DNA of 64,000 nt from an uncultured Gammaproteobacteria bacterium. GTDB lineage: Bacteria > Patescibacteriota > Microgenomatia > UBA10105 > UBA927. Below the pieces are notes generated by a model. That model made no database searches. It saw nothing but the letters and a program-made list of their open reading frames with translations, and was not told the origin of the DNA. Within the stretch, counting starts at the first letter, position 1. Every line of letters begins with the position of its first letter. The translations under genes and the position numbers were made by a program. Location of the stretch: assembly GCA_964553825.1 (NCBI GenBank), contig CAZKLT010000002.1, forward strand, positions 66,068 to 130,067. Reading direction: 5' to 3'. Positions 9,711 through 44,897 of the stretch are shown here, in pieces.

Positions 9711-9712
9711 GT

Positions 9713-10363: not shown

Positions 10364-10385
10364 GTTGAGACTCTTTGAAGGGAGG

Positions 10386-12317: not shown

Positions 12318-12374
12318 ACAAACCTATAGTATCAACTACTATACGGCTTGTCAATTCTATGCACCTCTTTCGTA

Positions 12375-12995
12375 TCATCCTCGTAGACCGCTTGTCAATG
12401 ATGTGAACACCTCACGCAGTAAGAGACGACAAAGAAACTTAATAGTCCTCAGAGCCAGACGCATATCATAATTCCAGCTTTTCTTTTTTATATAGGCGAT
12501 ATCGCTTTTCATCCATGCATCGAACGCCTGTGTATGGTAGCCGTTTACCACCCAGGGGGAGATAATTCCCGGCCGTATCGTATGCCTTTTGCGCTGCCAC
12601 GCGGTCAGCTTTGCTGCTTCCGAAACTGGCAACGGGCGTGGTCCAAACAGCGCCATGTCACCGTGCAATACATTAAAAAGCTGCGGCAACTCATCCAGCC
12701 CTGTATGCGCCAGAAACTTGCCCACACCCGTAAATCGCGGGTCATTGAGCATTTTAAACACCGGACCGTGCGCTTCGTTCTTCTTCCTCAACGCTGCCTG
12801 CTCTTGTTCGGCATTGCGGCGCATCGTGCGAAATTTGTAGAGAAAAAACGGCTTTCCGTTCATACCTATACGCTTCTGCGAGAAAAAAACCGGAAAGCCG
12901 CTCGTAAGCACGATAACCAGACCGATACCGATCTGCATCGGCAAGGAGATGATCACTAACGCCAAAACAAATAGAATAGCAACCGCGTCTTTCAT
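12375..12995 (-). CDS. Polyprenyl-phosphate sugar-1-phosphate transferase (Bac_transf family, WbaP/WcaJ C-terminal-domain type). Initiating glycosyltransferase.
   Basis: 206 aa. N-terminal TM, then conserved motifs SQKRIG.NGKPF..YKFRTM and DELPQLFNVLHGDMALFGPRP. Confidence 0.8.
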   Translation of the reverse strand: MKDAVAILFVLALVIISLPMQIGIGLVIVLTSGFPVFFSQKRIGMNGKPFFLYKFRTMRRNAEQEQAALRKKNEAHGPVFKMLNDPRFTGVGKFLAHTGLDELPQLFNVLHGDMALFGPRPLPVSEAAKLTAWQRKRHTIRPGIISPWVVNGYHTQAFDAWMKSDIAYIKKKSWNYDMRLALRTIKFLCRLLLREVFTSLTSGLRG

Positions 12996-13004
12996 AGTAT
13001 CAAT

Positions 13005-13832
13005 ATGCCCTTGCTACACGCTATCCTCCATGCAACCCTCTATGTCGTAGAGTATAATACGCCCATGCAAACCGATGTACGCCACTTTATAGAATTACTG
13101 TGGGCCATGACGGAAAAAGAGCTTCGTGCAAGGTATAAGAATACCATATTCGGTTTCGTATGGCTGATCGTCAATCCGCTTTTGCAAATGCTTGTCATCG
13201 GCTTCATCTTTAACTTCTTTATGAATGAGCCTATCAAAAATTACTTCTTTCATCTGTTTATCGGGCTTCTTTCGTGGAATTTCTTTTCTACATCCATCAC
13301 GAAAGCCACGCCATCGGTCGTCTTTGAGCGTGGACTTATCAAAAAAGCCGCATTTCCAGTCGCGGTCATCCCGCTTTCAATCATTCTGTCCAATATTATC
13401 CATTTTGCCATTGCCTTCGGCATGCTGCTCGTACCCGTGTTCTTCCTCGGGACAATGACCATGCTCACCATACCGCTCACCATCGCGGCGTTGCTTACGC
13501 TCTTTATGTTTACCATCGGCCTTAGCCTTATGACGTGTGCGCTAAACGTACGTTATCGGGACGTGAATTTTTTCATCCAGGCGCTGCTTATTATCTGGTT
13601 TTACGCTACCCCCATCGTCTATTCACTTTCTCAAATACCTCCAGGTACTCAGTGGTTATGGAACTTTAACCCGTTTACCACCATCATTCAGCTTTTACAG
13701 CACGCACTCATCCTGGCAGCGCCACCCGCCATAGGCGCGCTACTGACGAATATTGCCATCGTTATGGCGACGTTTTTCCTTGGCATATATGTATTTAATA
13801 AGGAAGCCAAAAATTTCGACGACTGGGTATGA
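13005..13832 (+). CDS. ABC-2 type polysaccharide/teichoic-acid exporter permease (Wzm/TagG-like)
   Basis: 275 aa with 6 TM helices and an ABC-2 family topology. Its stop overlaps the start of the downstream ATPase (ATGA coupling). Confidence 0.75.
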   Translation: MPLLHAILHATLYVVEYNTPMQTDVRHFIELLWAMTEKELRARYKNTIFGFVWLIVNPLLQMLVIGFIFNFFMNEPIKNYFFHLFIGLLSWNFFSTSITKATPSVVFERGLIKKAAFPVAVIPLSIILSNIIHFAIAFGMLLVPVFFLGTMTMLTIPLTIAALLTLFMFTIGLSLMTCALNVRYRDVNFFIQALLIIWFYATPIVYSLSQIPPGTQWLWNFNPFTTIIQLLQHALILAAPPAIGALLTNIAIVMATFFLGIYVFNKEAKNFDDWV

Positions 13833-14584
13833 AAAAAAATAAAGAGATAGCCATACAGCTTTCCAACATCAGCAAACGCTATGAAATTCACCATGACAAG
13901 CCGACACTGGCTGAAACGTTGCTTCATGGGCGCAACGAACTGTTCTGGGCGCTAAGAGACATTAACCTCTCCATACGCAAGGGTGAACGCGTCGGCATCA
14001 TCGGTCCCAATGGTTCCGGAAAAACAACATTGCTGAAAATCATATCAGGCATTGCAACACCCACAACCGGCACAGTGCAGACAACGGGCCGCCTGGTATC
14101 TCTTATCAACCTTGAAGCTGGTTTTCTCCCAGAATTAAGCGGCATTCAGAATATTTATCTCAATGGTATGATTCTTAACATGAGTAAACGGGAAATCGAT
14201 GCGAAAATAGATGCGATCGTCAAATATGCCGACATCGGCAGATTCGTGGACGCACCCATGTTCACCTATTCAGACGGCATGAAGCTAAAACTGGGCTTCT
14301 CCATCACGATTCATACTAACCCCGACATTCTTATATTGGATGAAAGCATGTATGTCGGAGACCAGAAATTTCAGGATAAGGCGCTGCGAACTATCGAGAA
14401 GTTTTACAAAATGCACACAACGATTCTTATCGTGACACATTGGCTTTCCTATGTGAAAAATAATTGCGACCGCATCATTGTGCTCGAGAAAGGACGAATC
14501 GCCAAAAACGGATCCAAAAAACTCGTCGATAACTTTTACCGATCTATGCAGGGGAAAAATCTTGAGTATACAGCGCCACTGTAA
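13829..14584 (+). CDS. ABC transporter ATP-binding protein (Wzt/TagH-like, short form)
   Basis: Walker A GPNGSGKTT, signature YSDGMKLKLGF, Walker B ILILDES. Confidence 0.8.
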   Translation: MKKNKEIAIQLSNISKRYEIHHDKPTLAETLLHGRNELFWALRDINLSIRKGERVGIIGPNGSGKTTLLKIISGIATPTTGTVQTTGRLVSLINLEAGFLPELSGIQNIYLNGMILNMSKREIDAKIDAIVKYADIGRFVDAPMFTYSDGMKLKLGFSITIHTNPDILILDESMYVGDQKFQDKALRTIEKFYKMHTTILIVTHWLSYVKNNCDRIIVLEKGRIAKNGSKKLVDNFYRSMQGKNLEYTAPL

Positions 14585-14600
14585 CCTAACGCACTCAGCC

Positions 14601-15479
14601 ATGAACTCGTCTTTCGTTCGACAATCCCATGCCCCAAAAAACTGGTGGAAAAAAGAGTTCGGCAGTTCCTACTATACCCTGTACAATCCCGTCCTAAACC
14701 CGCAGCGCACCAAACAGGAAGTATCATTTATCATTCGCGCGACGGGCCTTGCTCGTCCGACGCGCATTCTAGACGTTGGTTGCGGACATGGCAGGCACGC
14801 CATAGGACTCGCGAAGATGGGACATGACGTTATCGGCATCGATTATTCGACGTATTTTCTTAAAATTGCCCGAACGGAAGCAAAAAAACAGCAGGCCACC
14901 GCTACATTTATCCGTCAGGATATTCGCAGCATGAATTTTTCAGACGAATTTGATGTCGCGCTTTCTATGTATTCTGCTTTTGGATACTTCTCGTTGCGCG
15001 AAAATCTTACGGTCCTTCGCCGGATCCATTCGGCACTCAAGCCGGGCGGAAAATTTCTTCTGGATGTCATCAATGCCGAATGCCATGTCAAACACATCAC
15101 GTCGGCAGGGAAAAAAGTGAAAAAAGGTATTTATCAATTTTCCCAAAACAACGAAATAAACGGCTACAGTGTTCAGGATACCAATATTTATTTCACCAAA
15201 ACGCAGTTGGATTCCTATCATAGGCGTTGGCGAAAAGGAACAAAAACAGGGTCCTATAATTACTATATGTACCAATACACCGTGCCACAGTATCGCGACA
15301 TGCTTAGGCTGACAGGATTTGAAATGCTTAACATTTGGGGAGACTATCAAGGCGCACGATGGAGCCCAAGCAGCTGGCGCACCATTATCCTGTGCTACAA
15401 GCCTCGCAGCGGTGTCTTCGACAAAAACAAAATCGCGCAGTGGATTCAATTACGATTGTTACGCCGATGGCCGGATTGA
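14601..15479 (+). CDS. Class I SAM-dependent methyltransferase
   Basis: Motif I ILDVGCGHGRHA plus post-I acidic GIDYS. The ORF-track ORF 14478..15479 overlaps the ABC ATPase. The first non-overlapping Met (MNSSFVRQ) at 14601 was chosen as the start. Confidence 0.7.
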   Translation: MNSSFVRQSHAPKNWWKKEFGSSYYTLYNPVLNPQRTKQEVSFIIRATGLARPTRILDVGCGHGRHAIGLAKMGHDVIGIDYSTYFLKIARTEAKKQQATATFIRQDIRSMNFSDEFDVALSMYSAFGYFSLRENLTVLRRIHSALKPGGKFLLDVINAECHVKHITSAGKKVKKGIYQFSQNNEINGYSVQDTNIYFTKTQLDSYHRRWRKGTKTGSYNYYMYQYTVPQYRDMLRLTGFEMLNIWGDYQGARWSPSSWRTIILCYKPRSGVFDKNKIAQWIQLRLLRRWPD

Positions 15480-15480
15480 T

Positions 15481-16233
15481 ATGACACGTAATTCTGTGAA
15501 AGCTGTACTGCTTTTGGCGGGGGATGGGGGACGGCTTAGGCCGTATACTGCTACTCGACACAAAAGTCTCATCCCGATTGCAGGCAAACCAATTCTCTGG
15601 TATTCGATGATGAATCTCATCCAACTTGGAATCTCAGAGTATATTCTTGTGCTCGGACACCAGGCAGAAAGCGTCAAATCGTATATACAAACGACATTCC
15701 CGAATAGTATGTGCACATATGTCATAAACGACAGATATCGCGAAACGAATGTTGTGTACTCATTTTATCTCGCGTGCACGCATCTTCAAAACTCAGGATT
15801 TCTTCGCGTTGAAGGGGACCTTCTGTATAATAGAGCGATTGCGCGGCGACTTTTGGATTCGGGAAAACAACTTGTGTCAGCCGTTGAGCCGAGAGACAGA
15901 CGATCGGCGGAAGAATTCTGCGTGCAGGTGGACAAAGCGTCACATACGATACTTCGGTATGGGAAAAATCTCCCCAATCGGTCTGTGTATGGTATAGCCC
16001 AGGGGATAGATTTCGTTTCCCAGAAGGCCGCATGGTCAGTGTCGCAGGAGCTAGCGCGGATTGTCGAGGAGGGAAATCTGGATCAATACGCCGAATACGC
16101 ATTCGAGCGACTCTCTCAGCGCAGCGTCTATCACCCTTCGTACTGCGATATACAGGCGAGCGATTTTTGGTGTGACATAGACACCGCTGAGGATATCCTA
16201 TATGCGACAAAACATATTGACAAGCTTACCTAA
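15481..16233 (+). CDS. Sugar/alcohol-phosphate nucleotidyltransferase, LicC-like cytidylyltransferase family (NTP_transferase fold)
   Basis: AVLLLAGDGGRLRPYTATRHKSLIPIAGKPILWY matches the G-rich NTP_transferase N-terminal motif. It is about 250 aa, the same size and pattern as LicC/TarI-type CTP transferases. The internal Met at 15481 was chosen because the upstream part of the listed ORF (15319..) overlaps the methyltransferase. Confidence 0.65.
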   Translation: MTRNSVKAVLLLAGDGGRLRPYTATRHKSLIPIAGKPILWYSMMNLIQLGISEYILVLGHQAESVKSYIQTTFPNSMCTYVINDRYRETNVVYSFYLACTHLQNSGFLRVEGDLLYNRAIARRLLDSGKQLVSAVEPRDRRSAEEFCVQVDKASHTILRYGKNLPNRSVYGIAQGIDFVSQKAAWSVSQELARIVEEGNLDQYAEYAFERLSQRSVYHPSYCDIQASDFWCDIDTAEDILYATKHIDKLT

Positions 16234-17548
16234 AACATTCACGAGTCAAAAAACGGCAATACCATGTTTTATTATGGCCATTGATTCTTCCGTCGGATCT
16301 GGTCGGAATATGGATGCGTACTACGAGAATCTTTCAAATTCCCAGCTGATTATTCCTGTGATGGTATACTCTCGAGGCGAAAGCTACGAGACGGCCCCGG
16401 CGTGGATACAAAACAAAGTCTTATTGGACATGCCCTATGCGACCCATCCCATTGACCTATGCAGGCACAGCCACTGCAAAATTCCTATACACGCGCATAT
16501 AACCCATGACCAATGGATGCGGCAATTTGCAAAATCCGTGCCCATGGTGCGCGCCACAACCTCTGTCGCGCCCATATGGCTCCTGGATATGGTCCTGCCA
16601 ATTATCGAGGCTCCCATGAAGCGTCATATCGTGCAAGTGTTTCACGGTGAACTCTTTCCAATCGGACCGCTTCCGTATATCCGTCCTGAGCACATCGATT
16701 CGATCCTTTCCTACGACCGGCTGCTACTTTCTGGACAGGTCATTGAAGATGCCTTGATGGCATCAGGTGTCATTGATCCTGAAGATACGCGAATCAGAAG
16801 AATCGGCCGCGTGCTTGACGATACGCTCTACAATGGAACGATCAAAAAACAAACGGTGCTTCGGGAGTTTGGCTTGGATCCAAAGCGCAAAACGCTTCTA
16901 TACGCCCCGACGTGGGAATCATTAAAGCTGTGGCCTATGGGAACACGCGCAGATGACGCGCGGTATCTGCGCCGGTTCTGCTCATTTGCGCAGAAACAGA
17001 ACCTAAACGTAATCCTTCGTCCGCATCCAATATCCATTATCCAGTATGGCGTACAACCGCTGATTGCGCGGAGTACAAAACTCTACCGGAACGTATATTT
17101 CGACAATGCCCGACTCTCCTCATACTACGGCCCAAATAAAGCACTAATCGCAGCAGACATCCTGATTACGGACTTATCAAGCATATCTGCTGAATTTTTG
17201 TCATTGGGAAAACCGGTCGTGTACCTGTATCCGGATAGATCTGTTGGCATCTGGGGCGAGGGATTTCCTTCTATCGCAGCGGTTCGGAAGCTCTCCTATA
17301 CCGTGCAGGGAATTTCGGAATTACTATCCGTGCTCACGCGTCTGCTCTCAAAAGAAGAGGATTCCCGAATCATAAAAAAACGCGCTCAGACAGCGGCGTA
17401 TTTTCTGGACCATCGAGACGGATCTTCCGGACGGCGGTTTCGTCAGGAAATGGAACAGCTTGCCCGGGAGCGCACAACAACGGAGTCTCGCATGTTTCTC
17501 CGGTTGTATCGTACTGTTATTCGTCGATTTTCCCGTAAAGATCGCTAG
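16202..17548 (+). CDS. CDP-glycerol/alditol-phosphate glycerophosphotransferase family protein (TagB/TagF-like, Glyphos_transf)
   Basis: C-terminal ILITDLSSISAEFLSLGKPVVYLYPD matches the TagF 'ITDYSS...KP' signature, with a preceding Rossmann-like region. The true start is probably an internal Met (MAIDSS at 16274 or MDAYYEN at 16310), since the ORF as listed overlaps the upstream gene by 32 nt. Confidence 0.65.
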   Translation: MRQNILTSLPKTFTSQKTAIPCFIMAIDSSVGSGRNMDAYYENLSNSQLIIPVMVYSRGESYETAPAWIQNKVLLDMPYATHPIDLCRHSHCKIPIHAHITHDQWMRQFAKSVPMVRATTSVAPIWLLDMVLPIIEAPMKRHIVQVFHGELFPIGPLPYIRPEHIDSILSYDRLLLSGQVIEDALMASGVIDPEDTRIRRIGRVLDDTLYNGTIKKQTVLREFGLDPKRKTLLYAPTWESLKLWPMGTRADDARYLRRFCSFAQKQNLNVILRPHPISIIQYGVQPLIARSTKLYRNVYFDNARLSSYYGPNKALIAADILITDLSSISAEFLSLGKPVVYLYPDRSVGIWGEGFPSIAAVRKLSYTVQGISELLSVLTRLLSKEEDSRIIKKRAQTAAYFLDHRDGSSGRRFRQEMEQLARERTTTESRMFLRLYRTVIRRFSRKDR

Positions 17549-17566
17549 CATCTCATTTCGCTCCGC

Positions 17567-18592
17567 ATGGAAACCATGAGGTATAATACCTATTCAGCGC
17601 GAGGAAACATGAACTATCGTACGCTCGGCAAAACAGGATATACCGTATCAGAGATCGGGTACGGAAGCTGGTCATTGGGATCCGACTGGGGGACAGTCAC
17701 GGATGACGACGCACTGCGCGTGCTGGCCAGTCTTCCTGCCGAAGGCATCAACTTTATAGACACGGCGGACATCTATGGCGACGGGAGAAGTGAGCGACTC
17801 ATCGCCCAACATAGGCAAATAACCGGACATCATGCGATCATCGCGACAAAAATCGGCAGGCGTCTTTCCCCGCATGCGGCAGAGGGATATACTGAGAAAA
17901 ACATACGTACCTTCGTTGAAAGAAGTCTTCAGAATCTCAAAACATCGTGTATAGACCTTTTGCAGCTTCATACGCCACCTTCACAGGTGTACTATATGCC
18001 AGACGTGTTTATGTATTTGGATCGTCTCGTGAAACACGGGAAAATTCGCCACTATGGCGTCAGCGTCGAAAAGGTTGAGGAGGGACTAAAGGCAATAGAG
18101 TATCCCGGCGTCGCGACAATCCAGATAATCTTTAACATCGTGCGCCAGCGCCCGATGGAACATCTGCTGAATGAAGCGCATCGCCGTAACGTCGGTGTTA
18201 TTGTACGCGTTCCGCTCGCAAGTGGATTACTTACCGGTAAATACAACATCTTTTCCCGGTTCCCGCGTAATGACCACCGGTCGTTCAACAGGCATGGCGA
18301 GATTTTTGATCGCGGTGAAACATTTGCTGGGGTAAATTTTCTTTCCGGCCTTCGGATTGTAAAAGCGCTACGGGGAGTAAAGCCACCATCGTATACCATG
18401 GCTCAATTTGCATTACGATGGATTCTTATGCATCCCGCCGTATCGACAGTGATCGTCGGAGGAAAAACACCTGCGCAAGTCCATGAAAACGCCCAGGCAA
18501 GCGGCATGCCAAGGCTTACCAAGAGAACCATGCAGCAGGTAAGTGCGCTATATGCAAAATTCGTTAAGCCTCAGGTGCATGATCGCTGGTAG
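17567..18592 (+). CDS. Aldo/keto reductase family oxidoreductase
   Basis: YRTLGKTGYTVSEIGYGSWSLG ... IDTADIYG ... HYGVS are AKR signatures. The start may be the internal MNYRTLG at 17609. Confidence 0.8.
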   Translation: METMRYNTYSARGNMNYRTLGKTGYTVSEIGYGSWSLGSDWGTVTDDDALRVLASLPAEGINFIDTADIYGDGRSERLIAQHRQITGHHAIIATKIGRRLSPHAAEGYTEKNIRTFVERSLQNLKTSCIDLLQLHTPPSQVYYMPDVFMYLDRLVKHGKIRHYGVSVEKVEEGLKAIEYPGVATIQIIFNIVRQRPMEHLLNEAHRRNVGVIVRVPLASGLLTGKYNIFSRFPRNDHRSFNRHGEIFDRGETFAGVNFLSGLRIVKALRGVKPPSYTMAQFALRWILMHPAVSTVIVGGKTPAQVHENAQASGMPRLTKRTMQQVSALYAKFVKPQVHDRW

Positions 18593-19823
18593 GTGCATAC
18601 GGGAAACAAAATCGTGCGGTTGAATATTTTTTGGCAAGCTGGGCAGCATCTTTACTCACATCTTTTCCGTCAAGAATACGCTGTATAAGCACCCCCAGCA
18701 GATTCATGTCTGCCTCTTTCATGCCCCGTTTTGTTGCTTCCTGCGTCCCAAGGCGAATGAACGTACGGCCACCAAGCGCGTTACTTGTGCTTATCGATAG
18801 GCCGTTCTGTGCGAAGCGCCGGACTATTGAGGAGCCCTCGGCATCGACGAGGAGGTGAACCTGATGATTATGGCTATATACGCCGTTTATCGACCTGACG
18901 TGTAGCCCGTTTTTCGCAAGCGCGCTACCAAGCGCCTGAGAGTTGCGAACAATCTGCCGCGCATACCCACGGCCATACATGTCCATTTCTAGCACCGTAA
19001 TCGCCAGGGCCATGAGGCTATTTGTGTGGACCGTCGAGTACGTATTCCGGACGATGCTATCCATTTCAGTCGCCAACGACTTGTCACGAAACGCAAGTAT
19101 GCCCTTATGCGGCCCGGGAAATGTCTTGTGCGTATTGGCAACAATAACGTCCGCCCCTTCCCGAAGGGGGGATTGAAATTCGCCGCCCATAATTAATCCA
19201 AGCGTGTGACTGGCATCATAGATAAGAAGCACGTCATGCGGAAGACCGTTTCGCAACTGGCGAAGCGGATGCGGCTGAAGCAGCACAGAGGTGTCCAGAT
19301 ACACGATGCGTGCTTTTTTTCTGCGGGCCAGATAAACCGTCTTCGCGACATCAAGAGTCAGCCGAGAGATATCATACGCTGCGTATACATGCTTTCTGCC
19401 GATGCTTTCTGCTATGTGCTTCGTGCAAAAATGACCACCATCCTCCTCACGGACGGACATTACGGTATCGCCCGGCCGAGTAGATCCCAGAAGCGCACAC
19501 AGCATTGCGTGCGCTCCGGACAGACATTCAAGGTTCACATCCTCGGCGGCCAGCATTTTTTTAGCTTTTGCCTTTGCACGGTCGAGAATATCGTGAAGTC
19601 GCGGGTAGGTAATGGCCGAAAAGTCTCCGAAGTTATTCGCAGTCATAACGCCCCCGATCCCTCTTCCGAAATCATATCGCAGCCCCATGGGTGACCGGTA
19701 AAACCGCATTGCAAGCGGGGAGAGTATGTTCTGGTTGGCGGTTAGATTGACCATCCGGTCGTTATACGACTCAATGTCCTGGAGCGTACGAAAAAGGCGG
19801 TTGGCTGTCAGCGAATCAAACAT
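18564..19823 (-). CDS. Divergent serine hydroxymethyltransferase-fold PLP enzyme (SHMT/threonine-aldolase-like)
   Basis: N-terminal MVNLTANQNILSPLA corresponds to SHMT 'IELIASENFTSPAV'. The PLP-lysine region VIVANTHKTFPGPHKGILAF corresponds to SHMT 'TTTHKTLRGPRGG'. It is divergent from housekeeping GlyA. Confidence 0.6.
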   Translation of the reverse strand: MFDSLTANRLFRTLQDIESYNDRMVNLTANQNILSPLAMRFYRSPMGLRYDFGRGIGGVMTANNFGDFSAITYPRLHDILDRAKAKAKKMLAAEDVNLECLSGAHAMLCALLGSTRPGDTVMSVREEDGGHFCTKHIAESIGRKHVYAAYDISRLTLDVAKTVYLARRKKARIVYLDTSVLLQPHPLRQLRNGLPHDVLLIYDASHTLGLIMGGEFQSPLREGADVIVANTHKTFPGPHKGILAFRDKSLATEMDSIVRNTYSTVHTNSLMALAITVLEMDMYGRGYARQIVRNSQALGSALAKNGLHVRSINGVYSHNHQVHLLVDAEGSSIVRRFAQNGLSISTSNALGGRTFIRLGTQEATKRGMKEADMNLLGVLIQRILDGKDVSKDAAQLAKKYSTARFCFPYAPTSDHAPEA

Positions 19824-19859
19824 ATCTGCGATTGTAGCACAGCCCTTGACGCTGTCTGA

Positions 19860-20897
19860 TTATTTTTTCTCCCGAAGCCTACGATCTACTGTTCGCAAAA
19901 CACCAAGAAAACTGTCCGTGTGAACCCGCATACCGATCGTTACGCGCATATAGACCTCGGTCATAAATTTGGCTATCAGGACATCCTGATTGTCCAATGC
20001 ATCCACCAATAACGGCTTTGCCTTTGCATTAACTTTTACTAATACCAGGTTAGCACGGGAATCGAATGCCACGAAATGGTCAAGGGCATTGACGGACCGA
20101 ATAAAGTATTCCCTATCAGAGATAATGGTCCGTGCTAATTTACGATAGTACATCCGGGCCGTAAGGGCAGCCAAGGCAACCTCTTCCAATATCCTATTTC
20201 CTCCGAGGTACGGATCCTGATACCGCAACATTGCTTTGATGTTTTTACCGCACAATGCGTACCCCATACGCAGTCCTGCCAGGGCGTACTGTTTTGAGAA
20301 GCTTCTAAGTATCATAAGATTGCCAAATTGATCCAGGAGGCGTCGAAAACCCGCTGCATCATATTTATCATCAAAACCAAAATATGCCTCATCAAGAATA
20401 ACAAGAGTGTTACTGGAAACGCGACGAAGGATTCTTTTGGCATCGGCCACAGAGATAACATTGCCGCTCGGGTTGTTTGGCGTCGTGATAAGCACCAGTT
20501 GCGGCGCGTACCGATGAATTTTTTTTACGCAATCCTCTATATCAAATGAAAACGCGCTCTTACCCTCTGTGATCCGGAAGGTGTGAAGCTTGATATTGCG
20601 AAATGCAAGGTATTTCGCATAAAAGCCGAAGTGAAGTTCATGGGTAAGCACACTGCTTTTTCCAACCTGAAGGCTATTAAAGACAAGGCGCAATATCTCT
20701 TCAGCGCCGTATCCGATAAGAATACGGCTCCGTGGCAAGGAAAATCGCTTAGCCAACTCCGGAGCCAGAATGGATCCCGAATACCCATCAAAATACCGTG
20801 CGAGCTTGTCAGCGGATGCGGCATGCAGCACCTGTAGGCACACCGGAGCAGGGCCAAGAACAACTTCGTTTCGATTCAAAAGCAACTGGTTTTTCAT
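19860..20897 (-). CDS. Class II PLP aminotransferase of the HisC/CobD family (histidinol-phosphate aminotransferase / threonine-phosphate decarboxylase-like)
   Basis: PLP-lysine motif SFSKQYALAGLRMGYAL (compare HisC SFSKAYGLAGLRVGY), plus TPNNPSG upstream. Confidence 0.7.
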   Translation of the reverse strand: MKNQLLLNRNEVVLGPAPVCLQVLHAASADKLARYFDGYSGSILAPELAKRFSLPRSRILIGYGAEEILRLVFNSLQVGKSSVLTHELHFGFYAKYLAFRNIKLHTFRITEGKSAFSFDIEDCVKKIHRYAPQLVLITTPNNPSGNVISVADAKRILRRVSSNTLVILDEAYFGFDDKYDAAGFRRLLDQFGNLMILRSFSKQYALAGLRMGYALCGKNIKAMLRYQDPYLGGNRILEEVALAALTARMYYRKLARTIISDREYFIRSVNALDHFVAFDSRANLVLVKVNAKAKPLLVDALDNQDVLIAKFMTEVYMRVTIGMRVHTDSFLGVLRTVDRRLREKK

Positions 20898-20904
20898 GCC
20901 GGTA

Positions 20905-22218
20905 CTAGAAAATTACATGCGTCTTTGGCTTGTCGAAAATAAATTCCGGTGTAAGCGACGCGTTGTATGCGCCTATGCAATAGTAGACGATGACATCACC
21001 TTCAGACACTGATGGCAACCATCCGCGGAAAAGCACATCGTCTTCTCGCAGCGTAGCGCCATAAATAATCGTCGGCTGTATGTTTCCATTTCGCTGCTGA
21101 AATGAAGGGGAAAAAATCCGCAGTATTTGCGGCCGATAGGGGATAAGCGACAACATGGTCGTTGCGCCGTCAGCAAATACTGTTTGCTTCATGCCTTTAT
21201 GTACGCGCTGAACGCGTGTTACAAACACCGCGGCATCATCAACCAGATATCTTCCCGGCTCGATCATAAGCCTGAGCTTGCCAGCATCAGGATATTGCGT
21301 GCGCATTGCTTCCCAGATGGTTTGTGCATATTCGTCCGTTGTATACGCATTCCACGACTGTCTTTCGTATGGCTTGCGGCCGTGGGATTTCATGCCACCA
21401 CCGCAATTCACATAACGAGCGTGTAGCCCCGCCTTCTCCATTTGAGTGAGAGTTTCAGCTGCGGCCCGAGCCGCATTTCCAAACACGTCAAGCTGATCAA
21501 TATCAGTGCCCGTATGCACATGTACACCCTCAAATCGTATATAACGTTTTTTCAGCGTTACCAACACCGGAAGACTTATAAGGTCTGCCCGCGAAAAACC
21601 GAAATGACTGTGCCCCATGCTATGACCGCTGAGATTAAGACGGCATCCTATCCGGACACGAAGCTTTACTGTCCGGGAAAACTCCTCCAGTCGCATTAAC
21701 TCGGCTCGGTTGTCCACCTGAACAAGCACGTTATGCCTCATGGCAGTAACAAGGGAGGATTTTGTTTTGTTGGGGCCGTTGAACACGATTTTTTCACCTG
21801 CATATCCATACCGCAGTGCTAAGTGAAGTTCTCGCTCTGATCCAACGTCTGCGTACGTCCCGACGCGGCGAAGCGCAGATGCGGGAGCGTAATTAGTTTT
21901 AAATGAATACGCAATCGCCACCTTCTTCCAGTATCGGGAAAGGCTTCGTTTCACGCTGTCAAGGCGCTGCTCCATAATGCACATGTCAAGCAGATAGGCC
22001 GGCGTTTTTTCCGTACGGGCAAACTTTTTGATGTATGGCGCGATACGATCGTCAGAAGGAAAATGTGAAAAATTCACATCATCCCTGCCGACAAATATCG
22101 GATGGTTCCGTAGATAATACAGGCTTGCCGCTATCATAATTCCTTTACTTTTTGGATAATGCCGAGACCTGCTGCCACAGAGAGTTTGACTTTGGTTTGG
22201 ATCGGAATTGTTCGCCAA
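20905..22218 (-). CDS. PLP-dependent decarboxylase, Orn/DAP/Arg decarboxylase (alanine-racemase-fold, group IV) family
   Basis: PLP-Lys region IAYSFKTNYAP (compare LysA YAVKAN), Gly-rich CGGGM, and a C-terminal beta-domain. The start may be the internal MIAASLYYL at 22140, which removes the overlap with the upstream gene. Confidence 0.7.
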   Translation of the reverse strand: MANNSDPNQSQTLCGSRSRHYPKSKGIMIAASLYYLRNHPIFVGRDDVNFSHFPSDDRIAPYIKKFARTEKTPAYLLDMCIMEQRLDSVKRSLSRYWKKVAIAYSFKTNYAPASALRRVGTYADVGSERELHLALRYGYAGEKIVFNGPNKTKSSLVTAMRHNVLVQVDNRAELMRLEEFSRTVKLRVRIGCRLNLSGHSMGHSHFGFSRADLISLPVLVTLKKRYIRFEGVHVHTGTDIDQLDVFGNAARAAAETLTQMEKAGLHARYVNCGGGMKSHGRKPYERQSWNAYTTDEYAQTIWEAMRTQYPDAGKLRLMIEPGRYLVDDAAVFVTRVQRVHKGMKQTVFADGATTMLSLIPYRPQILRIFSPSFQQRNGNIQPTIIYGATLREDDVLFRGWLPSVSEGDVIVYYCIGAYNASLTPEFIFDKPKTHVIF

Positions 22219-28103: not shown

Positions 28104-29636
28104 CTACATACTAATTCTTGAGTAAATCGTGGCTCTTGTCTCAGGAAATATTTTTACTTTTACCACATCTGGACAACGACCCCTATTAAGGATGTCAATA
28201 AAAACGACTTCGGGAAATGCTGACTCCAGCAAACACGCCTCTCGTTCGTTTGAAGCAATAATCGGTGGAGCGCTTTTATAGCGTCTTGCATACCACAAAA
28301 GACTTATTTGAGCTCCCTGACCTGGCTCATCAGAGCTATACGTTACTATTTGCTTTGTGGTAATTTTACTTGCCATAACAACAGCATCTTTAAAACCATA
28401 AATAGATTTTGAGAAATTTCTTGGAAGACCAAGCGCGCCCTGCATCTGTCCATTTATCCATGAATAAGTAAAAACGCTAGTCAGTGCAATAACATATATT
28501 ATTGATGCCCTACGTTTCAGTCGAAATAAGGGAGTAACTAAAAGAAAGTACATAATCGGCAAAGCAAAAAGATAGTGTCGCACATGAAACGATGCATATT
28601 GACTATATAAAGCTATTGCAATAACTATCGTAATTGACCACAAAAACAAACTCAGGAAATAAACGGTTTTTTTCGTAAAAAAACAAAGTCCATAGACTAT
28701 GATTCCCAACAAGAAAATAAACTGTGCTCTTTCAGCCAACAAAACTTCATGCATATGTACAAGCGGACTCATAACGAATGAAAAAGTAGGAATCGTCTGA
28801 GGGACGGTAGCAATAAGCATTTTGTGAAAAAATATCACAAATAGTCCAACAAAAATGCCAAGCATGAATATCGCCTGACGTCTATTCTTTTTATCGCACA
28901 GACTCCATACTAAATATGGAATGACTATAATATGCTGGTAAATGGAGTTTACGGTAAAAATTACGACAATAGGAAAATTTTTTGTTGAGTAAAAAGACCC
29001 ATAGTCCATCATACGTACAGCGAGAATAACACCAAGAAATGATAATGCATAGAATCTGACTTCATAAGAGTATTGCAGTAAAAACGGATTTAAAAAATAC
29101 AATAAGAATATACATATTCCTATAAACATCTTTTCGAGATAGCTTCTTTTATAAGAAGCCTGATTTAGGGCATAAAAAACTAAAATTATCCCTGCAACAA
29201 TATGGAAAATCATATACGGAATTCGATAAATAAATTCCTGGTAATCCTTTGAAAAGAAAATTACTATGTGATTCCAGGCCCACATGTTCCAATAATCCAA
29301 AGGCAATGCTGAGGCATGCCACATAAACACTGATCGAGCGATCAAAGAAAAAGGGGATTCTGCAATCTGAATTACTCCAACTTCGTCACTCCACAATTCA
29401 AGAGAATTGATATTGTGAAAGTTAATGAGGTAATATGAAGCACCTATAGCCCAGAGTGCAAGTCCTATAAATCGCCGATCAAACGAAAGGTTTTTTAAAT
29501 GCAAAATGATTACATTCAAAAAAATATATAATAGTACAATGTACCATAATAAAGACAGGCTAGAAGCATAAAAAAGAAGAATAATGGCAACAATAAACAC
29601 GAAATTCTTAACTATCGATGGACTCAAATTTGCCAT
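28104..29636 (-). CDS. GT-C fold membrane glycosyltransferase (ArnT/PMT-like, GT39/GT83-type). Low-GC gene.
   Basis: 510 aa with about 12 TM helices. An acidic motif LWSDEVG in the first extracytoplasmic loop is the DE motif of GT-C enzymes. The coding sequence is conspicuously AT-rich compared with its neighbours. Confidence 0.5.
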   Translation of the reverse strand: MANLSPSIVKNFVFIVAIILLFYASSLSLLWYIVLLYIFLNVIILHLKNLSFDRRFIGLALWAIGASYYLINFHNINSLELWSDEVGVIQIAESPFSLIARSVFMWHASALPLDYWNMWAWNHIVIFFSKDYQEFIYRIPYMIFHIVAGIILVFYALNQASYKRSYLEKMFIGICIFLLYFLNPFLLQYSYEVRFYALSFLGVILAVRMMDYGSFYSTKNFPIVVIFTVNSIYQHIIVIPYLVWSLCDKKNRRQAIFMLGIFVGLFVIFFHKMLIATVPQTIPTFSFVMSPLVHMHEVLLAERAQFIFLLGIIVYGLCFFTKKTVYFLSLFLWSITIVIAIALYSQYASFHVRHYLFALPIMYFLLVTPLFRLKRRASIIYVIALTSVFTYSWINGQMQGALGLPRNFSKSIYGFKDAVVMASKITTKQIVTYSSDEPGQGAQISLLWYARRYKSAPPIIASNEREACLLESAFPEVVFIDILNRGRCPDVVKVKIFPETRATIYSRISM

Positions 29637-30336
29637 TGGAGGAATAAATGATGTTGTCTCCCATATTATATATCAATCAAAACGCAGTACGAAAGGATGC
29701 GTAATCTTACCCTGCTCACTTAACGATCTCGCACACAAGAATAAAACCGAGTATAACCAAAAAGCCTATACAGAGGTAGACATGCTGCTGCCTGATGGTA
29801 TGCCCCTGGTGTGGGCAATTAGCCTGAAAGGCAAAAAAACCGATCGCATTTATGGACCGGACCTTATGAAACGACTTCTTTCGTTACAAGAAGTCCAAAG
29901 GACAAGGCACGTCTTCTACGGATCCTCTAAACGAACACTTAATAAACTTGAAATGTATATCCAAAAAAAGCATCCATACATGAAGCACACTCTTTTTATT
30001 TCTCCTCCATTCCGCCAGTTAAGCCAACAAGAGGAGTGGGGATATGTAACGCAAATCCGTCACTATAAACCTGATTATGTATGGATTGGATTAAGCTCTC
30101 CTAAGCAGGTTATAGTAGCTGTTCAATGGAAAAATCAGCTTCCCAATACCATAATTCTCTGTGTCGGAGCGGCGTTTGATTTTATCGCTGGAACAGTGCC
30201 ACAAGCGCCAAAGTGGATGCAACGGATGGGTCTTGAGTGGGCGTTTCGCTTAGGAACAAATCCCCGCCGTCTTTGGAGACGCTACCTTGTCACTATTCCA
30301 TCGTATCTTCTCAGCGGCTCACTTTTCAAGGCCTAG
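29584..30336 (+). CDS. WecB/TagA/CpsF family glycosyltransferase (GT26)
   Basis: DMLLPDGMPLVWAISLKGKK...RIYGPDLMKRLL ... HVFYGSS ... DYVWIGLSSPKQ ... LCVGAAFDFIAG match the GT26 (TagA/WecG) family. Confidence 0.8.
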   Translation: MATINTKFLTIDGLKFAIGGINDVVSHIIYQSKRSTKGCVILPCSLNDLAHKNKTEYNQKAYTEVDMLLPDGMPLVWAISLKGKKTDRIYGPDLMKRLLSLQEVQRTRHVFYGSSKRTLNKLEMYIQKKHPYMKHTLFISPPFRQLSQQEEWGYVTQIRHYKPDYVWIGLSSPKQVIVAVQWKNQLPNTIILCVGAAFDFIAGTVPQAPKWMQRMGLEWAFRLGTNPRRLWRRYLVTIPSYLLSGSLFKA

Positions 30337-44841: not shown

Positions 44842-44845
44842 ACTA

Positions 44846-44864: not shown

Positions 44865-44897
44865 ATACTCCCGCCCGACTCGCCCTGGTGTAATCCT

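What the first reader, a model, noticed from the sequence alone, without database searches (positions are those of the whole stretch)
12375..17548. Teichoic-acid-like polymer module: Bac_transf initiator, TagGH-like ABC exporter, methyltransferase, LicC-like cytidylyltransferase and TagB/TagF-like phosphotransferase
A TagF-family polyol-phosphate transferase (ITDLSS...KP signature), a LicC/TarI-type cytidylyltransferase and a TagGH-like ABC-2 exporter sit next to each other. A TagA-like GT26 lies further on at 29584. Together they indicate synthesis and export of a phosphodiester-linked (teichoic-acid-like) polymer, or a phospho-alcohol decoration, rather than a simple O-antigen. If this genome is from a CPR/Patescibacteria-like lineage, a teichoic-acid-type pathway would be notable.
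Basis: partly seen in the sequence, partly recalled or inferred. Interest (0 to 1): 0.55.

Follow-up and report, generated by a model that had tools for sequence, protein, structure and literature searches.

The report
CPR phospho-headgroup glycan decoration operon
A candidate-phyla-radiation bacterium (Gottesmanbacteria) carries an operon that most likely activates a small, probably amine-bearing, alcohol phosphate with CTP and attaches it through a phosphodiester bond to a cell-surface sugar chain that an ABC pump then exports. It is a lineage-specific variant of teichoic-acid and phosphocholine chemistry, not a classical teichoic acid pathway.

Summary
Window 12375-18592 encodes a small Bac_transf initiator (minus strand). 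On the plus strand it encodes a tight operon: ABC-2 permease, ATPase, class-I methyltransferase, LicC/PntC-type cytidylyltransferase, TagF-family phosphotransferase and an aldo-keto reductase.

- The TagF-like protein keeps both family histidines and the ITDLSS/KP core. Its model matches TagF along its whole length.
- The nucleotidyltransferase sits with PntC, LicC and IPCT by sequence and by fold, not with glucose-1-phosphate enzymes.

The DnaA encoded in the window places the genome in Candidatus Gottesmanbacteria (CPR). The TagF-like clade is very rare and appears restricted to that lineage. Cytidylyltransferase and TagF-like genes are adjacent in all 12 loci examined, usually with the methyltransferase and the exporter.

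The enzyme is a bare GT-B domain without the extra N-terminal domain of polymerases. That favours a decoration, cap or primer over a long polymer. Neighbouring PLP enzymes, an NmbA-like methyltransferase and a P-loop kinase in sister loci point to an N-methylated amino-alcohol phosphate. The head group is inferred, not shown.

This is not a canonical wall teichoic acid pathway: no TagO, TagD/TarIJ or LCP gene lies in the window. It is a new variant of a known kind, of moderate interest.

The parts
12375..12995 (-). Small monotopic polyprenyl-phosphate phosphoglycosyl transferase (Bac_transf). It is the initiator of the lipid-linked glycan and is divergently transcribed from the operon.
   Evidence: Pfam PF02397, E 4.7e-52. 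The DE dyad GLDELPQL lies at 12678-12701 and GPRPL at 12630-12644. Orthologues hold the same position in L001, L002, L017 and L021.
13005..13832 (+). ABC-2 permease (Wzm/TagG class).
   Evidence: PF01061, E 1.2e-19. The best NCBIfam model is galactan Wzm/RfbD at 72 bits, below its cut-off.
13829..14584 (+). ABC exporter ATPase (Wzt/TagH class). It is the nucleotide-binding domain only (251 aa) and has no C-terminal carbohydrate-binding domain.
   Evidence: PF00005, E 9.5e-23. TagH models score 183-186 bits and galactan Wzt 163 bits, all below their cut-offs. Walker A lies at 14003-14029, the YSDGM signature at 14267-14284 and Walker B at 14327-14344.
14601..15479 (+). Class-I SAM methyltransferase of the NmbA-like small-molecule class. 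It is the proposed N-methyltransferase of the head group.
   Evidence: Methyltransf_25/11/31. The best PDB match is 9ri2 (NmbA, bacillithiol N-methyltransferase), E 2e-23 over nearly the full length. The SAM motif ILDVGCGHG lies at 14766-14798. Orthologues lie directly upstream of the cytidylyltransferase in 10 of 12 loci.
15481..16233 (+). LicC/PntC-type CTP:phospho-alcohol (or phosphonate) cytidylyltransferase.
   Evidence: Pfam NTP_transferase, NTP_transf_3 and DUF6564. Profile against PDB: LicC 3.3e-22, PntC 2.1e-14. AlphaFold pLDDT 91; Foldseek PntC TM 0.82, LicC 0.80/0.86. Motifs: LLLAGDGGRLRP at 15508-15543, VEGDLLY at 15808-15828, YAEYAFE at 16087-16107.
16274..17548 (+). Divergent TagF-family CDP-alcohol phosphotransferase. 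It consists of the GT-B domain only and has a long basic amphipathic C-terminal helix.
   Evidence: PF04464, 58.4 bits. The top structural hits are TagF 3l7i-m, E 4e-11, TM 0.58-0.62. Invariant His codons lie at 16643-16645 and 17024-17026. YAPTWES lies at 16901-16921, ITDLSS at 17165-17182 and GKP at 17207-17215. The predicted C-terminal helix is encoded at about 17430-17545 (model residues 385-423).
17609..18592 (+). Aldo-keto reductase, the last gene of the operon. Its role is unresolved: head-group precursor reduction, or removal of an aldehyde by-product.
   Evidence: PF00248, E 4.3e-61. PDB matches are generic. Orthologues at 64-68% identity lie directly after the TagF-like gene in L001, L002 and L017, and an Aldo_ket_red gene holds the same position in the P0006 locus.
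18564..19823 (-). SHMT-fold PLP enzyme that resembles L-threonine transaldolases as much as SHMT. It is a convergent accessory gene.
   Evidence: NCBIfam fluorothreonine transaldolase 250 bits against SHMT 174 bits, both below their cut-offs. PDB: ObiH 7k34 8.6e-49, M. jannaschii SHMT 2.4e-43. The PLP-Lys motif NTHKT lies at 19110-19136. The gene is conserved in the five closest loci.
19860..20897 (-). HisC/CobD-family PLP enzyme, found only in this locus. It is the proposed source of an amino-alcohol phosphate without a kinase.
   Evidence: PF00155, E 2.2e-33. HisC model 204 bits and CobD model 123 bits, both below their cut-offs. PDB: HisC 3.4e-26, a threonine-phosphate-decarboxylase-like enzyme 1.3e-19. 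The PLP motif SFSKQYALAGLRMGY lies at 20259-20303. No orthologue in L001, L002, L006, L007, L009, L010, L013, L014, L017, L018, L020 or L021.
20905..22218 (-). Fold-III (Orn/DAP-type) PLP decarboxylase, called 'DecB' here. Accessory gene of unknown substrate.
   Evidence: PF02784, E 5.7e-32. It is 53% identical to L001 14980-16215. It is only 24-25% identical to the in-operon decarboxylase 'DecA' of L001, L002 and L006.
29584..30336 (+). GT26 WecG/TagA/CpsF-family glycosyltransferase, 12 kb downstream in the same glycan region.
   Evidence: PF03808, E 5.3e-50. The superfamily model TIGR00696 scores 133 bits against a cut-off of 69. The TarA equivalog scores 83 bits against a cut-off of 350.

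Best explanation
The locus is a phospho-headgroup module for a cell-surface glycan of a Gottesmanbacteria (CPR) cell.

Shown at the level of homology and fold:
- A LicC/PntC-type enzyme condenses CTP with a small phosphorylated alcohol to give a CDP-alcohol.
- A divergent TagF-family GT-B enzyme uses one histidine to deprotonate an acceptor hydroxyl. It uses a second histidine to protonate the leaving CMP.
- The result is transfer of alcohol-phosphate onto the acceptor as a phosphodiester.
- A Wzm/Wzt-type ABC-2 pump is encoded in the same operon, and a Bac_transf phosphoglycosyl transferase diverges from it.

Inferred:
- The acceptor is an undecaprenyl-diphosphate-linked glycan assembled in the cytoplasm and then exported by the pump.
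- The TagF-like protein is only the GT-B domain and lacks the N-terminal domain found in polymerases. It therefore most likely adds one or a few units (decoration, cap or primer) and does not build a long poly(alditol phosphate).
- The head group is most likely an amino-alcohol phosphate that the NmbA-like methyltransferase N-methylates. Candidates are phosphoethanolamine or phosphocholine-like, serinol-phosphate or aminopropanol-phosphate.
- In sister loci the precursor would come from an in-operon PLP decarboxylase plus a small P-loop kinase. In this window both are missing. A HisC/CobD-family PLP enzyme, whose characterised relatives all act on phosphorylated substrates, would supply the amino-alcohol phosphate directly.
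For: Gene identities and motifs.

TagF-like enzyme:
- AlphaFold pLDDT 88. The top PDB fold matches are TagF, then Bcs3 and Cps3D, over the full length.
- His251 aligns with TarL His433.
- Phe-His124 is invariant in 19 family members and in 5 second-tier relatives that carry the canonical WxQxFHS motif.
- The roles of the two histidines, and the statement that polymerases carry an extra N-terminal domain, come from PMC10901376.

Cytidylyltransferase:
- LicC and PntC are the best matches by profile and by fold.
- The closest outside relatives (35% identity) are Rhodobacteraceae 'phosphocholine cytidylyltransferase family' proteins. They sit next to a CDP-alcohol phosphatidyltransferase, and in one of the two genomes checked also a class-V aminotransferase.
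- Glu111 occupies the position of PntC Glu104 / LicC Asp105, which contacts the substrate amine.
- Glu205, invariant in the six orthologues aligned, lies in a Y-x-E motif on the helix that carries LicC Asp192 / PntC Glu196.

Methyltransferase:
- The best solved relative is the N-methyltransferase NmbA.
- Several further hits are N-methyltransferases: CypM, the daptide methyltransferase, glycine-sarcosine methyltransferase, DesVI, CcbJ and phosphoethanolamine methyltransferases.

Synteny:
- The cytidylyltransferase and TagF-like pair is adjacent in 12 of 12 loci. A methyltransferase is adjacent in 10. An exporter is in the operon or nearby in 9.
- A decarboxylase lies directly upstream of the methyltransferase in L001, L002, L006 and L017.
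- A conserved 199-220 aa gene lies between the cytidylyltransferase and the TagF-like gene in L001, L002 and L017. It has a Walker A motif (IGMSGTGKS in L017, one of the two sequences read) and shikimate-kinase/AAA_33 hits in all three.
- The window has no homologue of that kinase or decarboxylase, but uniquely has the HisC-like gene.
- Campylobacter Cj1437 (DHAP to serinol-P) and Cj1436 (Ser-P to ethanolamine-P) are precedents for amino-alcohol-phosphate supply to a surface glycan (PMC11800397). That they belong to the HisC/CobD fold is from my own knowledge.
Against: No substrate is identified by any curated equivalog model. All specific NCBIfam hits are below their cut-offs.

The amine-contact position (PntC Glu104) is not conserved among orthologues: it reads E/A/A/A/D/E. 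The C-terminal alignment to LicC/PntC is uncertain by about one helical turn.

Five more distant loci (L013, L014, L018, L021 and the P0019 locus) have no PLP enzyme or kinase next to the pair. Either the head group differs there or the precursor comes from elsewhere.

One locus (L021) lacks the methyltransferase, and in L014 it lies 6 kb away. The methyltransferase could therefore act on the glycan and not on the head group.

The HisC-like protein scores best as a true histidinol-phosphate aminotransferase, and its link to the operon is positional only.

The roles of the conserved aldo-keto reductase and of the SHMT/transaldolase-like enzyme are unexplained.

The acceptor, the export substrate and the final anchoring are all inferred.
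Confidence: 0.55

Rival explanations
1. Classical polyol-phosphate (teichoic-type) chemistry. The aldo-keto reductase plays the TarJ role and reduces a sugar or triose phosphate to an alditol phosphate (glycerol-, erythritol- or ribitol-phosphate). The cytidylyltransferase plays the TarI/Gtp2 role. The TagF-like enzyme adds or polymerises alditol phosphate. The PLP enzymes and the methyltransferase serve other decorations of the same glycan.
For: The order cytidylyltransferase, TagF-like, reductase is contiguous and conserved in the five closest loci. The reductase has weak matches to L-glyceraldehyde-3-phosphate reductase YghZ (1e-17; 3.9e-17). All characterised TagF-family enzymes use CDP-glycerol or CDP-ribitol (PMC10901376). 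IPCT, a polyol-phosphate cytidylyltransferase, is also among the top fold matches. A related spirochaete TagF-like protein is fused to an Fe-alcohol dehydrogenase.
Against: The reductase is absent from the other loci whose flanks could be read, while the methyltransferase accompanies the pair in 10 of 12. The in-operon decarboxylase and kinase of sister loci have no role in this scheme. The reductase matches are generic and far below cut-off. The cytidylyltransferase is closer to LicC and PntC than to IPCT. No TarI/IspD-type or TagD-type enzyme is present: the only CTP_transf_like gene is NadD.
Confidence: 0.2
2. Chain-terminating cap. In an ABC-transporter-dependent pathway the module adds a methylated phospho-group to the non-reducing end of the glycan. 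This would stop elongation and set chain length, as WbdD does with methyl phosphate in E. coli O9a.
For: The genes follow wzm-wzt directly in 7 loci, as wbdD does in E. coli O8/O9a (gene order from my own knowledge). A methyltransferase is paired with a phosphotransfer step. The GT-B-only enzyme suits a single addition.
Against: The ATPase is a bare 251-aa nucleotide-binding domain. It lacks the C-terminal carbohydrate-binding domain that reads the cap in terminator-dependent systems. No coiled-coil ruler or kinase domain like that of WbdD is present. This reading is compatible with the best explanation and differs from it only in the site of attachment.
Confidence: 0.12
3. Phosphonate tailoring. 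The PntC-like enzyme makes CMP-2-aminoethylphosphonate (possibly N-methylated), which is transferred to the glycan.
For: PntC is the top structural match (TM 0.82). In one of the two Rhodobacteraceae genomes checked, the relative is linked to a class-V, AEP-transaminase-like aminotransferase. PntC-type activation is widespread in phosphonate clusters (PMC6697681).
Against: No PEP mutase, phosphonopyruvate decarboxylase or AEP transaminase was found among the ORFs of 150 aa or more in the window that were scanned with Pfam, or among the called genes of the related loci. TagF-family enzymes attack the beta-phosphorus of a CDP-diester, and no phosphonate transfer is known for them.
Confidence: 0.04
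4. The pair is an ordinary sugar-1-phosphate nucleotidyltransferase plus a GT-B glycosyltransferase of a plain O-antigen-like cluster, with no phosphodiester chemistry.
For: The NCBIfam hits with the lowest E-values for the nucleotidyltransferase are sugar-1-P enzymes, matched in the N-terminal region. GT-B epimerases and glycosyltransferases also appear in the Foldseek list.
Against: Full-length sequence and fold matches are to LicC, PntC and IPCT. The second protein passes the Glyphos_transf gathering score. It carries both TagF-family histidines and the ITDxSS/KP motif, and TagF is its top fold hit.
Confidence: 0.03

Closest known systems
Wall teichoic acid enzymes TagB/TagF/TarF/TarL with the TagGH exporter (Bacillus, Staphylococcus)
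   Same: The fold is the same GT-B fold as the TagF C-terminal domain. Both catalytic histidines are kept, as are the YAPTW, HP, ITDxSS and KP motifs. The inferred donor is a CDP-activated alcohol phosphate. An ABC-2 exporter lies in the same operon, and a GT26 gene lies in the region.
   Different: Identity to TagF is only about 14% (13-14% in the Foldseek rows), and the N-terminal half is not alignable by sequence. The enzyme has no polymerase N-terminal domain, so by architecture it resembles the primases TagB/TarF. Initiation is by a Bac_transf enzyme and not by TagO. The nucleotidyltransferase is LicC/PntC-type and not TagD or TarI. No LCP ligase is present in the window.
Lic pathway for phosphocholine decoration (LicA/LicB/LicC/LicD, Streptococcus pneumoniae, Haemophilus)
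   Same: A LicC-fold cytidylyltransferase makes a CDP-alcohol that decorates a surface glycan through a phosphodiester.
   Different: The transferase is TagF-family and not LicD. The window has no LicA choline kinase and no LicB permease. The head group appears to be made de novo, by PLP enzymes plus a SAM methyltransferase, and not taken up as choline.
PntC phosphonate cytidylyltransferase (Treponema denticola Tde1415; PMC6697681)
   Same: It is the best structural match of the cytidylyltransferase (TM 0.82). The window enzyme has Glu at the position of PntC Glu104.
   Different: No phosphonate biosynthesis genes are present. That Glu is not conserved in orthologues. The downstream transferase is of a different family.
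TagF-like capsule polymerases of Gram-negative pathogens (Cps3D, Bcs3; PMC5974469, PMC10299916)
   Same: They carry a TagF-like phosphotransferase domain. They give the best sequence-profile PDB hit (Cps3D, 5.8e-7). They work in an ABC-transporter-dependent pathway.
   Different: They are large multi-domain polymerases (more than 1000 aa) that build long polymers. The protein here is a stand-alone 424-aa domain.
Serine-decarboxylase / phosphoethanolamine-methylation route to CDP-choline (Plasmodium, plants, nematodes)
   Same: The sister loci L001, L002 and L017 contain the same logical set: PLP decarboxylase, small-molecule kinase, SAM methyltransferase and cytidylyltransferase.
   Different: None of the enzymes is orthologous. 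The decarboxylase is fold III, the kinase is P-loop and the methyltransferase is NmbA-like. The product would go to a glycan and not to a lipid. The chemistry is inferred only.
Campylobacter jejuni Cj1436/Cj1437 (ethanolamine-P and serinol-P for capsule decoration; PMC11800397)
   Same: These PLP enzymes (HisC/CobD-fold, from my own knowledge) generate an amino-alcohol phosphate inside a surface-polysaccharide cluster exported by an ABC transporter.
   Different: In Campylobacter the product is amide-linked to glucuronate by an ATP-grasp ligase and then dephosphorylated. Here a CDP-activation and phosphodiester route is proposed.

Membership tests
TagF-like phosphotransferases (Pfam PF04464 Glyphos_transf) | Significant match to the family profile | tested here: met
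   58.4 bits against a gathering score of 22.1, E 7.7e-16. The match covers only profile positions 159-360.
TagF-like phosphotransferases (Pfam PF04464 Glyphos_transf) | GT-B fold like the TagF C-terminal domain | tested here: met
   AlphaFold pLDDT 88, pTM 0.87. Foldseek's top ten hits are all TagF 3l7i-m: E 4e-11, TM 0.56-0.62, about 440 aligned columns.
TagF-like phosphotransferases (Pfam PF04464 Glyphos_transf) | Second invariant histidine (TarL H433), which protonates the leaving CMP | tested here: met
   The RPHP His251 aligns with the 'kmHPf' motif of TarL, whose His is residue 433 when counted from the alignment. It is invariant in alignments A1 and A3. The residue's role comes from PMC10901376.
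TagF-like phosphotransferases (Pfam PF04464 Glyphos_transf) | Catalytic-base histidine preceded by an aromatic residue (TagF H444, TarL W299-H300) | tested here: inconclusive
   Phe123-His124 is invariant and lies 127 residues before His251 (TarL: 133). It aligns with the FHS motif of second-tier relatives that carry the canonical WxQxFHSxPxKK. No direct sequence or residue-level structural alignment to TagF or TarL was obtained for this half.
TagF-like phosphotransferases (Pfam PF04464 Glyphos_transf) | Donor-binding core ITDxSS ... KP | tested here: met
   ITDLSS (298-303) and GKP (312-314) align with 'litDySS ... kP' of Cps3D and TarL. D300, S302 and P314 are invariant.
TagF-like polymerases (TagF, TarL, TarK subgroup) | Additional N-terminal domain in front of the GT-B domain | tested here: not met
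   The whole 424-aa protein is accounted for by the GT-B domain. PMC10901376 states that polymerases carry an extra N-terminal domain.
LicC/PntC-type cytidylyltransferases | N-terminal NTP-binding signature (L-x-x-A-G-x-G-x-R-L-x-P ... K) | tested here: met
   LLLAGDGGRLRP ... HKSL occupies residues 10-30. G14, G16, R18 and K28 are invariant.
LicC/PntC-type cytidylyltransferases | Closer to LicC, PntC and IPCT than to sugar-1-phosphate nucleotidyltransferases | tested here: met
   Profile: LicC 3.3e-22; PntC 2.1e-14 over 239 positions. Sugar-1-P enzymes score 1e-13 or weaker, over the N-terminal ~50-90 residues only. Fold: PntC 0.82, LicC 0.80/0.86 and IPCT 0.79 rank first. No tree was built.
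LicC/PntC-type cytidylyltransferases | Acidic residues that contact the substrate amine (LicC D105/D192; PntC E104/E196) | tested here: inconclusive
   Window Glu111 aligns with PntC Glu104, but the orthologues read E/A/A/A/D/E. Invariant Glu205, or Glu209 (Gln in orthologues), may match D192/E196. The alignment there is uncertain.
LicC/PntC-type cytidylyltransferases | CTP specificity and activity on a phospho-alcohol or phosphonate | not testable with these tools
   An enzyme assay is needed.
Canonical wall teichoic acid pathway (Tag/Tar) | TagO/WecA-type GlcNAc-1-P initiation | tested here: not met
   No Glycos_transf_4/MraY-like gene was found among the ORFs of 150 aa or more in the window that were scanned with Pfam. 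The initiator present is a Bac_transf enzyme.
Canonical wall teichoic acid pathway (Tag/Tar) | TagD, or TarI plus TarJ, for donor synthesis | tested here: not met
   The only CTP_transf_like gene (57292-57846) is NadD, which scores above its equivalog cut-off. The cytidylyltransferase is LicC-type and not IspD/TarI-type.
Canonical wall teichoic acid pathway (Tag/Tar) | TagA/TarA GT26 ManNAc transferase | tested here: inconclusive
   A GT26 superfamily member lies at 29584-30336. The TarA equivalog model scores 83 bits against a cut-off of 350.
Canonical wall teichoic acid pathway (Tag/Tar) | LCP (LytR-CpsA-Psr) ligase to peptidoglycan | tested here: not met
   None is present in the 64-kb window. 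Three Wzy_C proteins are present. The rest of the genome could not be searched.
Lic phosphocholine pathway | LicA kinase, LicB permease and LicD transferase | tested here: not met
   No choline kinase, permease or LicD family hit occurs in the window. Sister loci carry a P-loop kinase that is not LicA-like.
ABC-transporter-dependent (Wzm/Wzt, TagGH) glycan export | ABC-2 permease plus cognate ATPase in the biosynthetic operon | tested here: met
   The arrangement is conserved in the operon in 7 loci.
ABC-transporter-dependent (Wzm/Wzt, TagGH) glycan export | C-terminal carbohydrate-binding domain on Wzt (terminator-reading subtype) | tested here: not met
   The ATPase is 251 aa and consists of the nucleotide-binding domain only.

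The most novel reading that the evidence does not exclude
Gottesmanbacteria synthesise an N-methylated amino-alcohol phosphate de novo, without exogenous choline. It may be phosphocholine-like, or a serinol- or aminopropanediol-phosphate that can still be polymerised. They attach it to an ABC-exported surface glycan with a lineage-specific TagF-type enzyme, giving a zwitterionic 'teichoic-like' coat. Two interchangeable precursor routes would have evolved: decarboxylase plus P-loop kinase in some strains, and a HisC/CobD-type PLP enzyme acting on a phosphorylated precursor in this one. This would be a bacterial counterpart of the eukaryotic serine-decarboxylase / phosphoethanolamine-methylation pathway.
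Probability: 0.2. Interest if true: 0.7.

Novelty: new variant of a known kind. Interest (0 to 1): 0.42.

Why it matters
CPR/Patescibacteria are mostly uncultured, apparently host-attached bacteria, and the chemistry of their surfaces is essentially unknown. Published genome surveys suggest rhamnose polymers 'instead of teichoic acids' (PMC11809585).

A conserved, lineage-restricted operon that installs a phosphodiester-linked, possibly cationic, head group on an exported glycan would be a concrete and testable element of that surface. It bears on attachment, phage recognition and charge balance.

It would also extend TagF-family chemistry beyond glycerol- and ribitol-phosphate. It offers a small set of soluble enzymes (methyltransferase, cytidylyltransferase, HisC-like enzyme, TagF-like enzyme) that can be expressed and assayed without culturing the organism.

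Tried and rejected
- **Source contig.** Exact look-ups of the window's TagF-like protein found no record. Cluster look-ups gave unnamed singletons from one 177-kb NCBI contig. Taxonomy was obtained from DnaA homologues instead.
- **MAG titles.** The titles 'uncultured Gammaproteobacteria/Pseudomonadales' on related loci were rejected as mislabels. The DnaA proteins on the contigs that carry L002, L014 and P0009 are 75-78% identical to the window's DnaA, and the named relatives in that identity range are Gottesmanbacteria.
- **Promoters and terminators.** The scan of 12200-23200 found nothing above shuffled expectation.
- **N-terminal half of the TagF-like family.** hhalign against a more ordinary TagF-like protein (L009) aligned only the C-terminal half.
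- **Accessory enzymes.** PDB and NCBIfam searches of the reductase, the fold-III decarboxylases, the group-II decarboxylases and the HisC-like protein gave only generic family matches, with no substrate assignment.
- **TagD candidate.** The candidate at 57292-57846 is NadD.
- **O-methyl-phosphoramidate pathway.** A Campylobacter-like pathway was considered because of an APS-kinase gene in L013. It was rejected: there is no glutamine kinase or amidohydrolase. That protein has an N-terminal FHKGH (HxGH-type) motif ahead of the APS-kinase domain and sits near sulfotransferases, so it probably makes PAPS.
- **Phosphonate route.** Rejected for lack of PEP mutase.
- **Metagenome scan.** The scan with the family patterns added only one new informative family locus, L021; L020 is a 2.3-kb fragment.
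- **Structure job.** An alignment of database homologues was used instead.

Full report
**1. Observation**

- A 206-aa Bac_transf phosphoglycosyl transferase lies at 12375-12995 on the minus strand.
- On the plus strand there is a tightly packed operon:
  - ABC-2 permease, 13005-13832.
  - ATPase, 13829-14584, overlapping the permease by 4 bp.
  - Class-I SAM methyltransferase. Its real start is probably 14601, 17 bp after the ATPase stop.
  - Nucleotidyltransferase. Its real start is 15481, one base after the methyltransferase stop.
  - Glyphos_transf protein. Its start is 16274 according to the 100%-identical database protein P0001.
  - An aldo-keto reductase (17609-18592), which the finding did not include.
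- Catalytic motifs are intact in all of these genes.
- The GT26 gene at 29584 is confirmed.

**2. The two refutation tests**

*TagF-like protein*
- The Pfam match covers only the C-terminal half.
- Single-sequence PDB hits were marginal.
- A 19-member family alignment (A1) hits Cps3D at 5.8e-7 and TarL at 8.6e-4.
- In that alignment the family's RPHP histidine falls on TarL His433. According to the TarL cryo-EM paper this residue contacts the alpha-phosphate and assists CMP departure (PMC10901376).
- The catalytic base of TarL is His300, stacked on Trp299, 133 residues upstream.
- The family has an invariant Phe-His (QVFHGELF) 127 residues upstream.
- That His aligns with the His of the canonical WxQxFHSxPxKK motif in second-tier relatives recovered by the exhaustive search.
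- The AlphaFold model (pLDDT 88, pTM 0.87) returns TagF structures as its ten best PDB matches over about 440 columns. Bcs3 and Cps3D follow.
- The protein is therefore a TagF-family member with its catalytic apparatus intact.

*Nucleotidyltransferase*
- A profile of six orthologues (A2) ranks LicC first (3.3e-22) and PntC second (2.1e-14, full length). Sugar-1-phosphate enzymes match only the N-terminal NTP-binding region.
- The AlphaFold model (pLDDT 91) ranks PntC (TM 0.82), LicC (0.80/0.86) and IPCT (0.79) first.
- It does not group with glucose-1-phosphate thymidylyl- or uridylyltransferases.

**3. Organism**

- The window holds dnaA, dnaN and a GC-skew switch near 46 kb.
- It also holds a short YidC with Jag and Gram-positive-type type IV secretion genes.
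- DnaA homologues with names, at 73-78% identity, are Candidatus Gottesmanbacteria.
- The DnaA proteins of three other contigs that carry the TagF-like family appear in the same list.
The 'Gammaproteobacteria' titles on related MAGs are wrong.

**4. Rarity and conservation**

- The word-indexed search found only 20 relatives among 5.8 billion clusters.
- The exhaustive search of 1.84 billion representatives found 2524 TagF-family hits. Only 15 had E below 1e-30. About five were full-length 50%-identity clusters, followed by a drop from 446 to 136 bits.
- Twelve loci were compared, counting the window:
  - The cytidylyltransferase and TagF-like genes are adjacent in all 12.
  - The NmbA-like methyltransferase is directly upstream in 10. 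It is 6 kb away in L014 and not found in L021.
  - The ABC-2 exporter is directly upstream in 7 and nearby in 2.
- The conserved core is exporter, (methyltransferase), cytidylyltransferase, TagF-like enzyme.

**5. Polymer or decoration**

- The TarL paper states that all TagF-like enzymes have the GT-B domain and that the polymerases carry an extra N-terminal domain.
- Here the whole 424-aa protein is the GT-B domain plus a long basic C-terminal helix.
- This resembles primases and single-addition enzymes more than polymerases.
- I therefore favour a decoration, cap or primer. This is an inference from architecture, not a demonstration.

**6. What is transferred**

No curated model names the substrate. 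The indications for an amine-bearing head group are these.
- (a) The methyltransferase's best solved relative is NmbA, an N-methyltransferase of a small-molecule amine. Other hits are enriched in N-methyltransferases.
- (b) The cytidylyltransferase is nearest to the two enzymes that activate amino-alkyl phosph(on)ates.
  - Window Glu111 sits at the PntC Glu104 / LicC Asp105 amine-contact position.
  - A Y-x-E motif with invariant Glu205 lies on the helix that bears LicC Asp192.
- (c) In L001, L002, L006 and L017 a fold-III PLP decarboxylase lies directly upstream of the methyltransferase.
- (d) In L001, L002 and L017 a conserved small gene lies between the cytidylyltransferase and the TagF-like gene. 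It has an N-terminal Walker A motif and weak but repeated shikimate-kinase/AAA_33 matches. That gives decarboxylase, kinase, methyltransferase and cytidylyltransferase, the logic of the eukaryotic route to CDP-choline.
- (e) The window lacks both that decarboxylase and the kinase. It alone has a HisC/CobD-family PLP enzyme.
  - Characterised members of that family act on phosphorylated substrates.
  - In Campylobacter they make serinol-P or ethanolamine-P for capsule decoration (PMC11800397).
  - This would remove the need for a kinase.

Against this reading:
- The Glu104-equivalent is not conserved among orthologues.
- Five distant loci have no PLP enzyme nearby.
- The conserved reductase and the SHMT/threonine-transaldolase-like enzyme have no assigned step.
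- I put about 0.4 on an amino-alcohol phosphate. I put about 0.2 on a polyol phosphate, with the reductase as a TarJ analogue.

**7. Comparison with known systems**

- The chemistry is that of TagF/TarL combined with LicC.
- The locus fails several defining features of the canonical wall teichoic acid pathway. It has no TagO, no TagD or TarIJ, and no LCP in the window. The TarA and TagH equivalog models score below their cut-offs.
- It also fails several features of the Lic pathway: no LicA, LicB or LicD.
- It works like these systems but is a member of neither pathway.
- At protein level it is a new, lineage-restricted clade of the TagF family paired with a DUF6564-type LicC/PntC relative.

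**8. Verdict**

- It is a new variant of a known kind, and the interest is moderate.
- The head-group identity and the acceptor remain to be shown. The enzymes are small and soluble enough for direct assay.

Noticed in passing
window 44757-47566 and GC skew around 46 kb: dnaA and dnaN lie together, and cumulative GC skew turns from falling to rising near 46 kb. The window therefore spans the replication origin, and the glycan region lies directly beside it.
   Followed up: partly
window 50917-57288: Gram-positive-type type IV secretion genes are present: a PrgI-like protein, a VirB4/TraG P-loop ATPase, a coupling protein and an M23 peptidase. They lie next to the origin.
   Followed up: no
window 8064-12317; L001 1-3716; L002 1-3004: Three genes lie upstream of the initiator. 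One is a Cys-rich secreted protein with DUF7305. The other two (216 aa and 643 aa) have no Pfam match. In L001 the same three-gene set precedes the initiator; L002, where fewer genes are readable, shows two no-Pfam genes there. They may be surface or pilus-associated proteins linked to the glycan.
   Followed up: partly
window 28104-29636: A 510-aa ORF without any Pfam match sits in a 2-kb block of 36% G+C, while the rest of the window is 46-54%. It lies between the DegT aminotransferase and the GT26 gene. It may be a horizontally acquired membrane polymerase or flippase.
   Followed up: no
window 40925-41965: A homologue of the plant 'reversibly glycosylated polypeptide' (UDP-arabinopyranose mutase family, E 1.2e-44) is encoded in a CPR genome, next to a 669-aa Wzy_C protein.
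   Followed up: no
window 16445-16498 (TagF-like residues 58-75): An H-x5-C-x4-C-x6-H motif (HPIDLCRHSHCKIPIHAH) in the N-terminal domain is conserved in most family members. It is absent in P0015, P0017 and P0019. It may be a metal site specific to this clade.
   Followed up: no
window 3428-4630, 33256-34647, 38932-40941 and 6720-8060: The window holds three Wzy_C (O-antigen ligase / O-oligosaccharyltransferase-like) proteins, a PMT-like GT-C protein, a Wzx-like flippase (1807-3048) and a second ABC ATPase (34646-35329). Several glycan pathways therefore coexist, and protein O-glycosylation is possible.
   Followed up: no
L001 9132-9731 (-), L002 9253-9882 (-), L017 8043-8705 (-): A conserved small protein with no Pfam family has an N-terminal Walker A motif and weak shikimate-kinase matches. 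It is a candidate head-group kinase and is absent from the window.
   Followed up: yes
L013 6231-10004: Two tandem paralogues of the cytidylyltransferase are present. A 326-aa fusion combines an N-terminal region carrying an FHKGH (HxGH-type) nucleotidyltransferase-like motif with an APS kinase domain. It sits beside sulfotransferases and radical-SAM enzymes, so this strain probably has a sulfated glycan.
   Followed up: partly
L007/L008 8357-10765: A spirochaete TagF-like domain is fused to an N-terminal iron-containing alcohol dehydrogenase (802 aa). One polypeptide would make the polyol and transfer it.
   Followed up: no
L015 5889-8822; L016 7198-8819: The nearest non-CPR relatives of the cytidylyltransferase are Rhodobacteraceae proteins with DUF6564. 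They sit directly after a CDP-alcohol phosphatidyltransferase and, in L015, a class-V aminotransferase. This looks like an uncharacterised lipid head-group (possibly aminophosphonate) pathway.
   Followed up: partly
L004, L005, L006 record titles: Public MAG records that carry this family are titled 'uncultured Gammaproteobacteria' or 'Pseudomonadales'. For L005's contig, DnaA identity places it with Gottesmanbacteria; L004 and L006 are inferred from carrying the same rare family. The taxonomy labels are likely wrong.
   Followed up: partly
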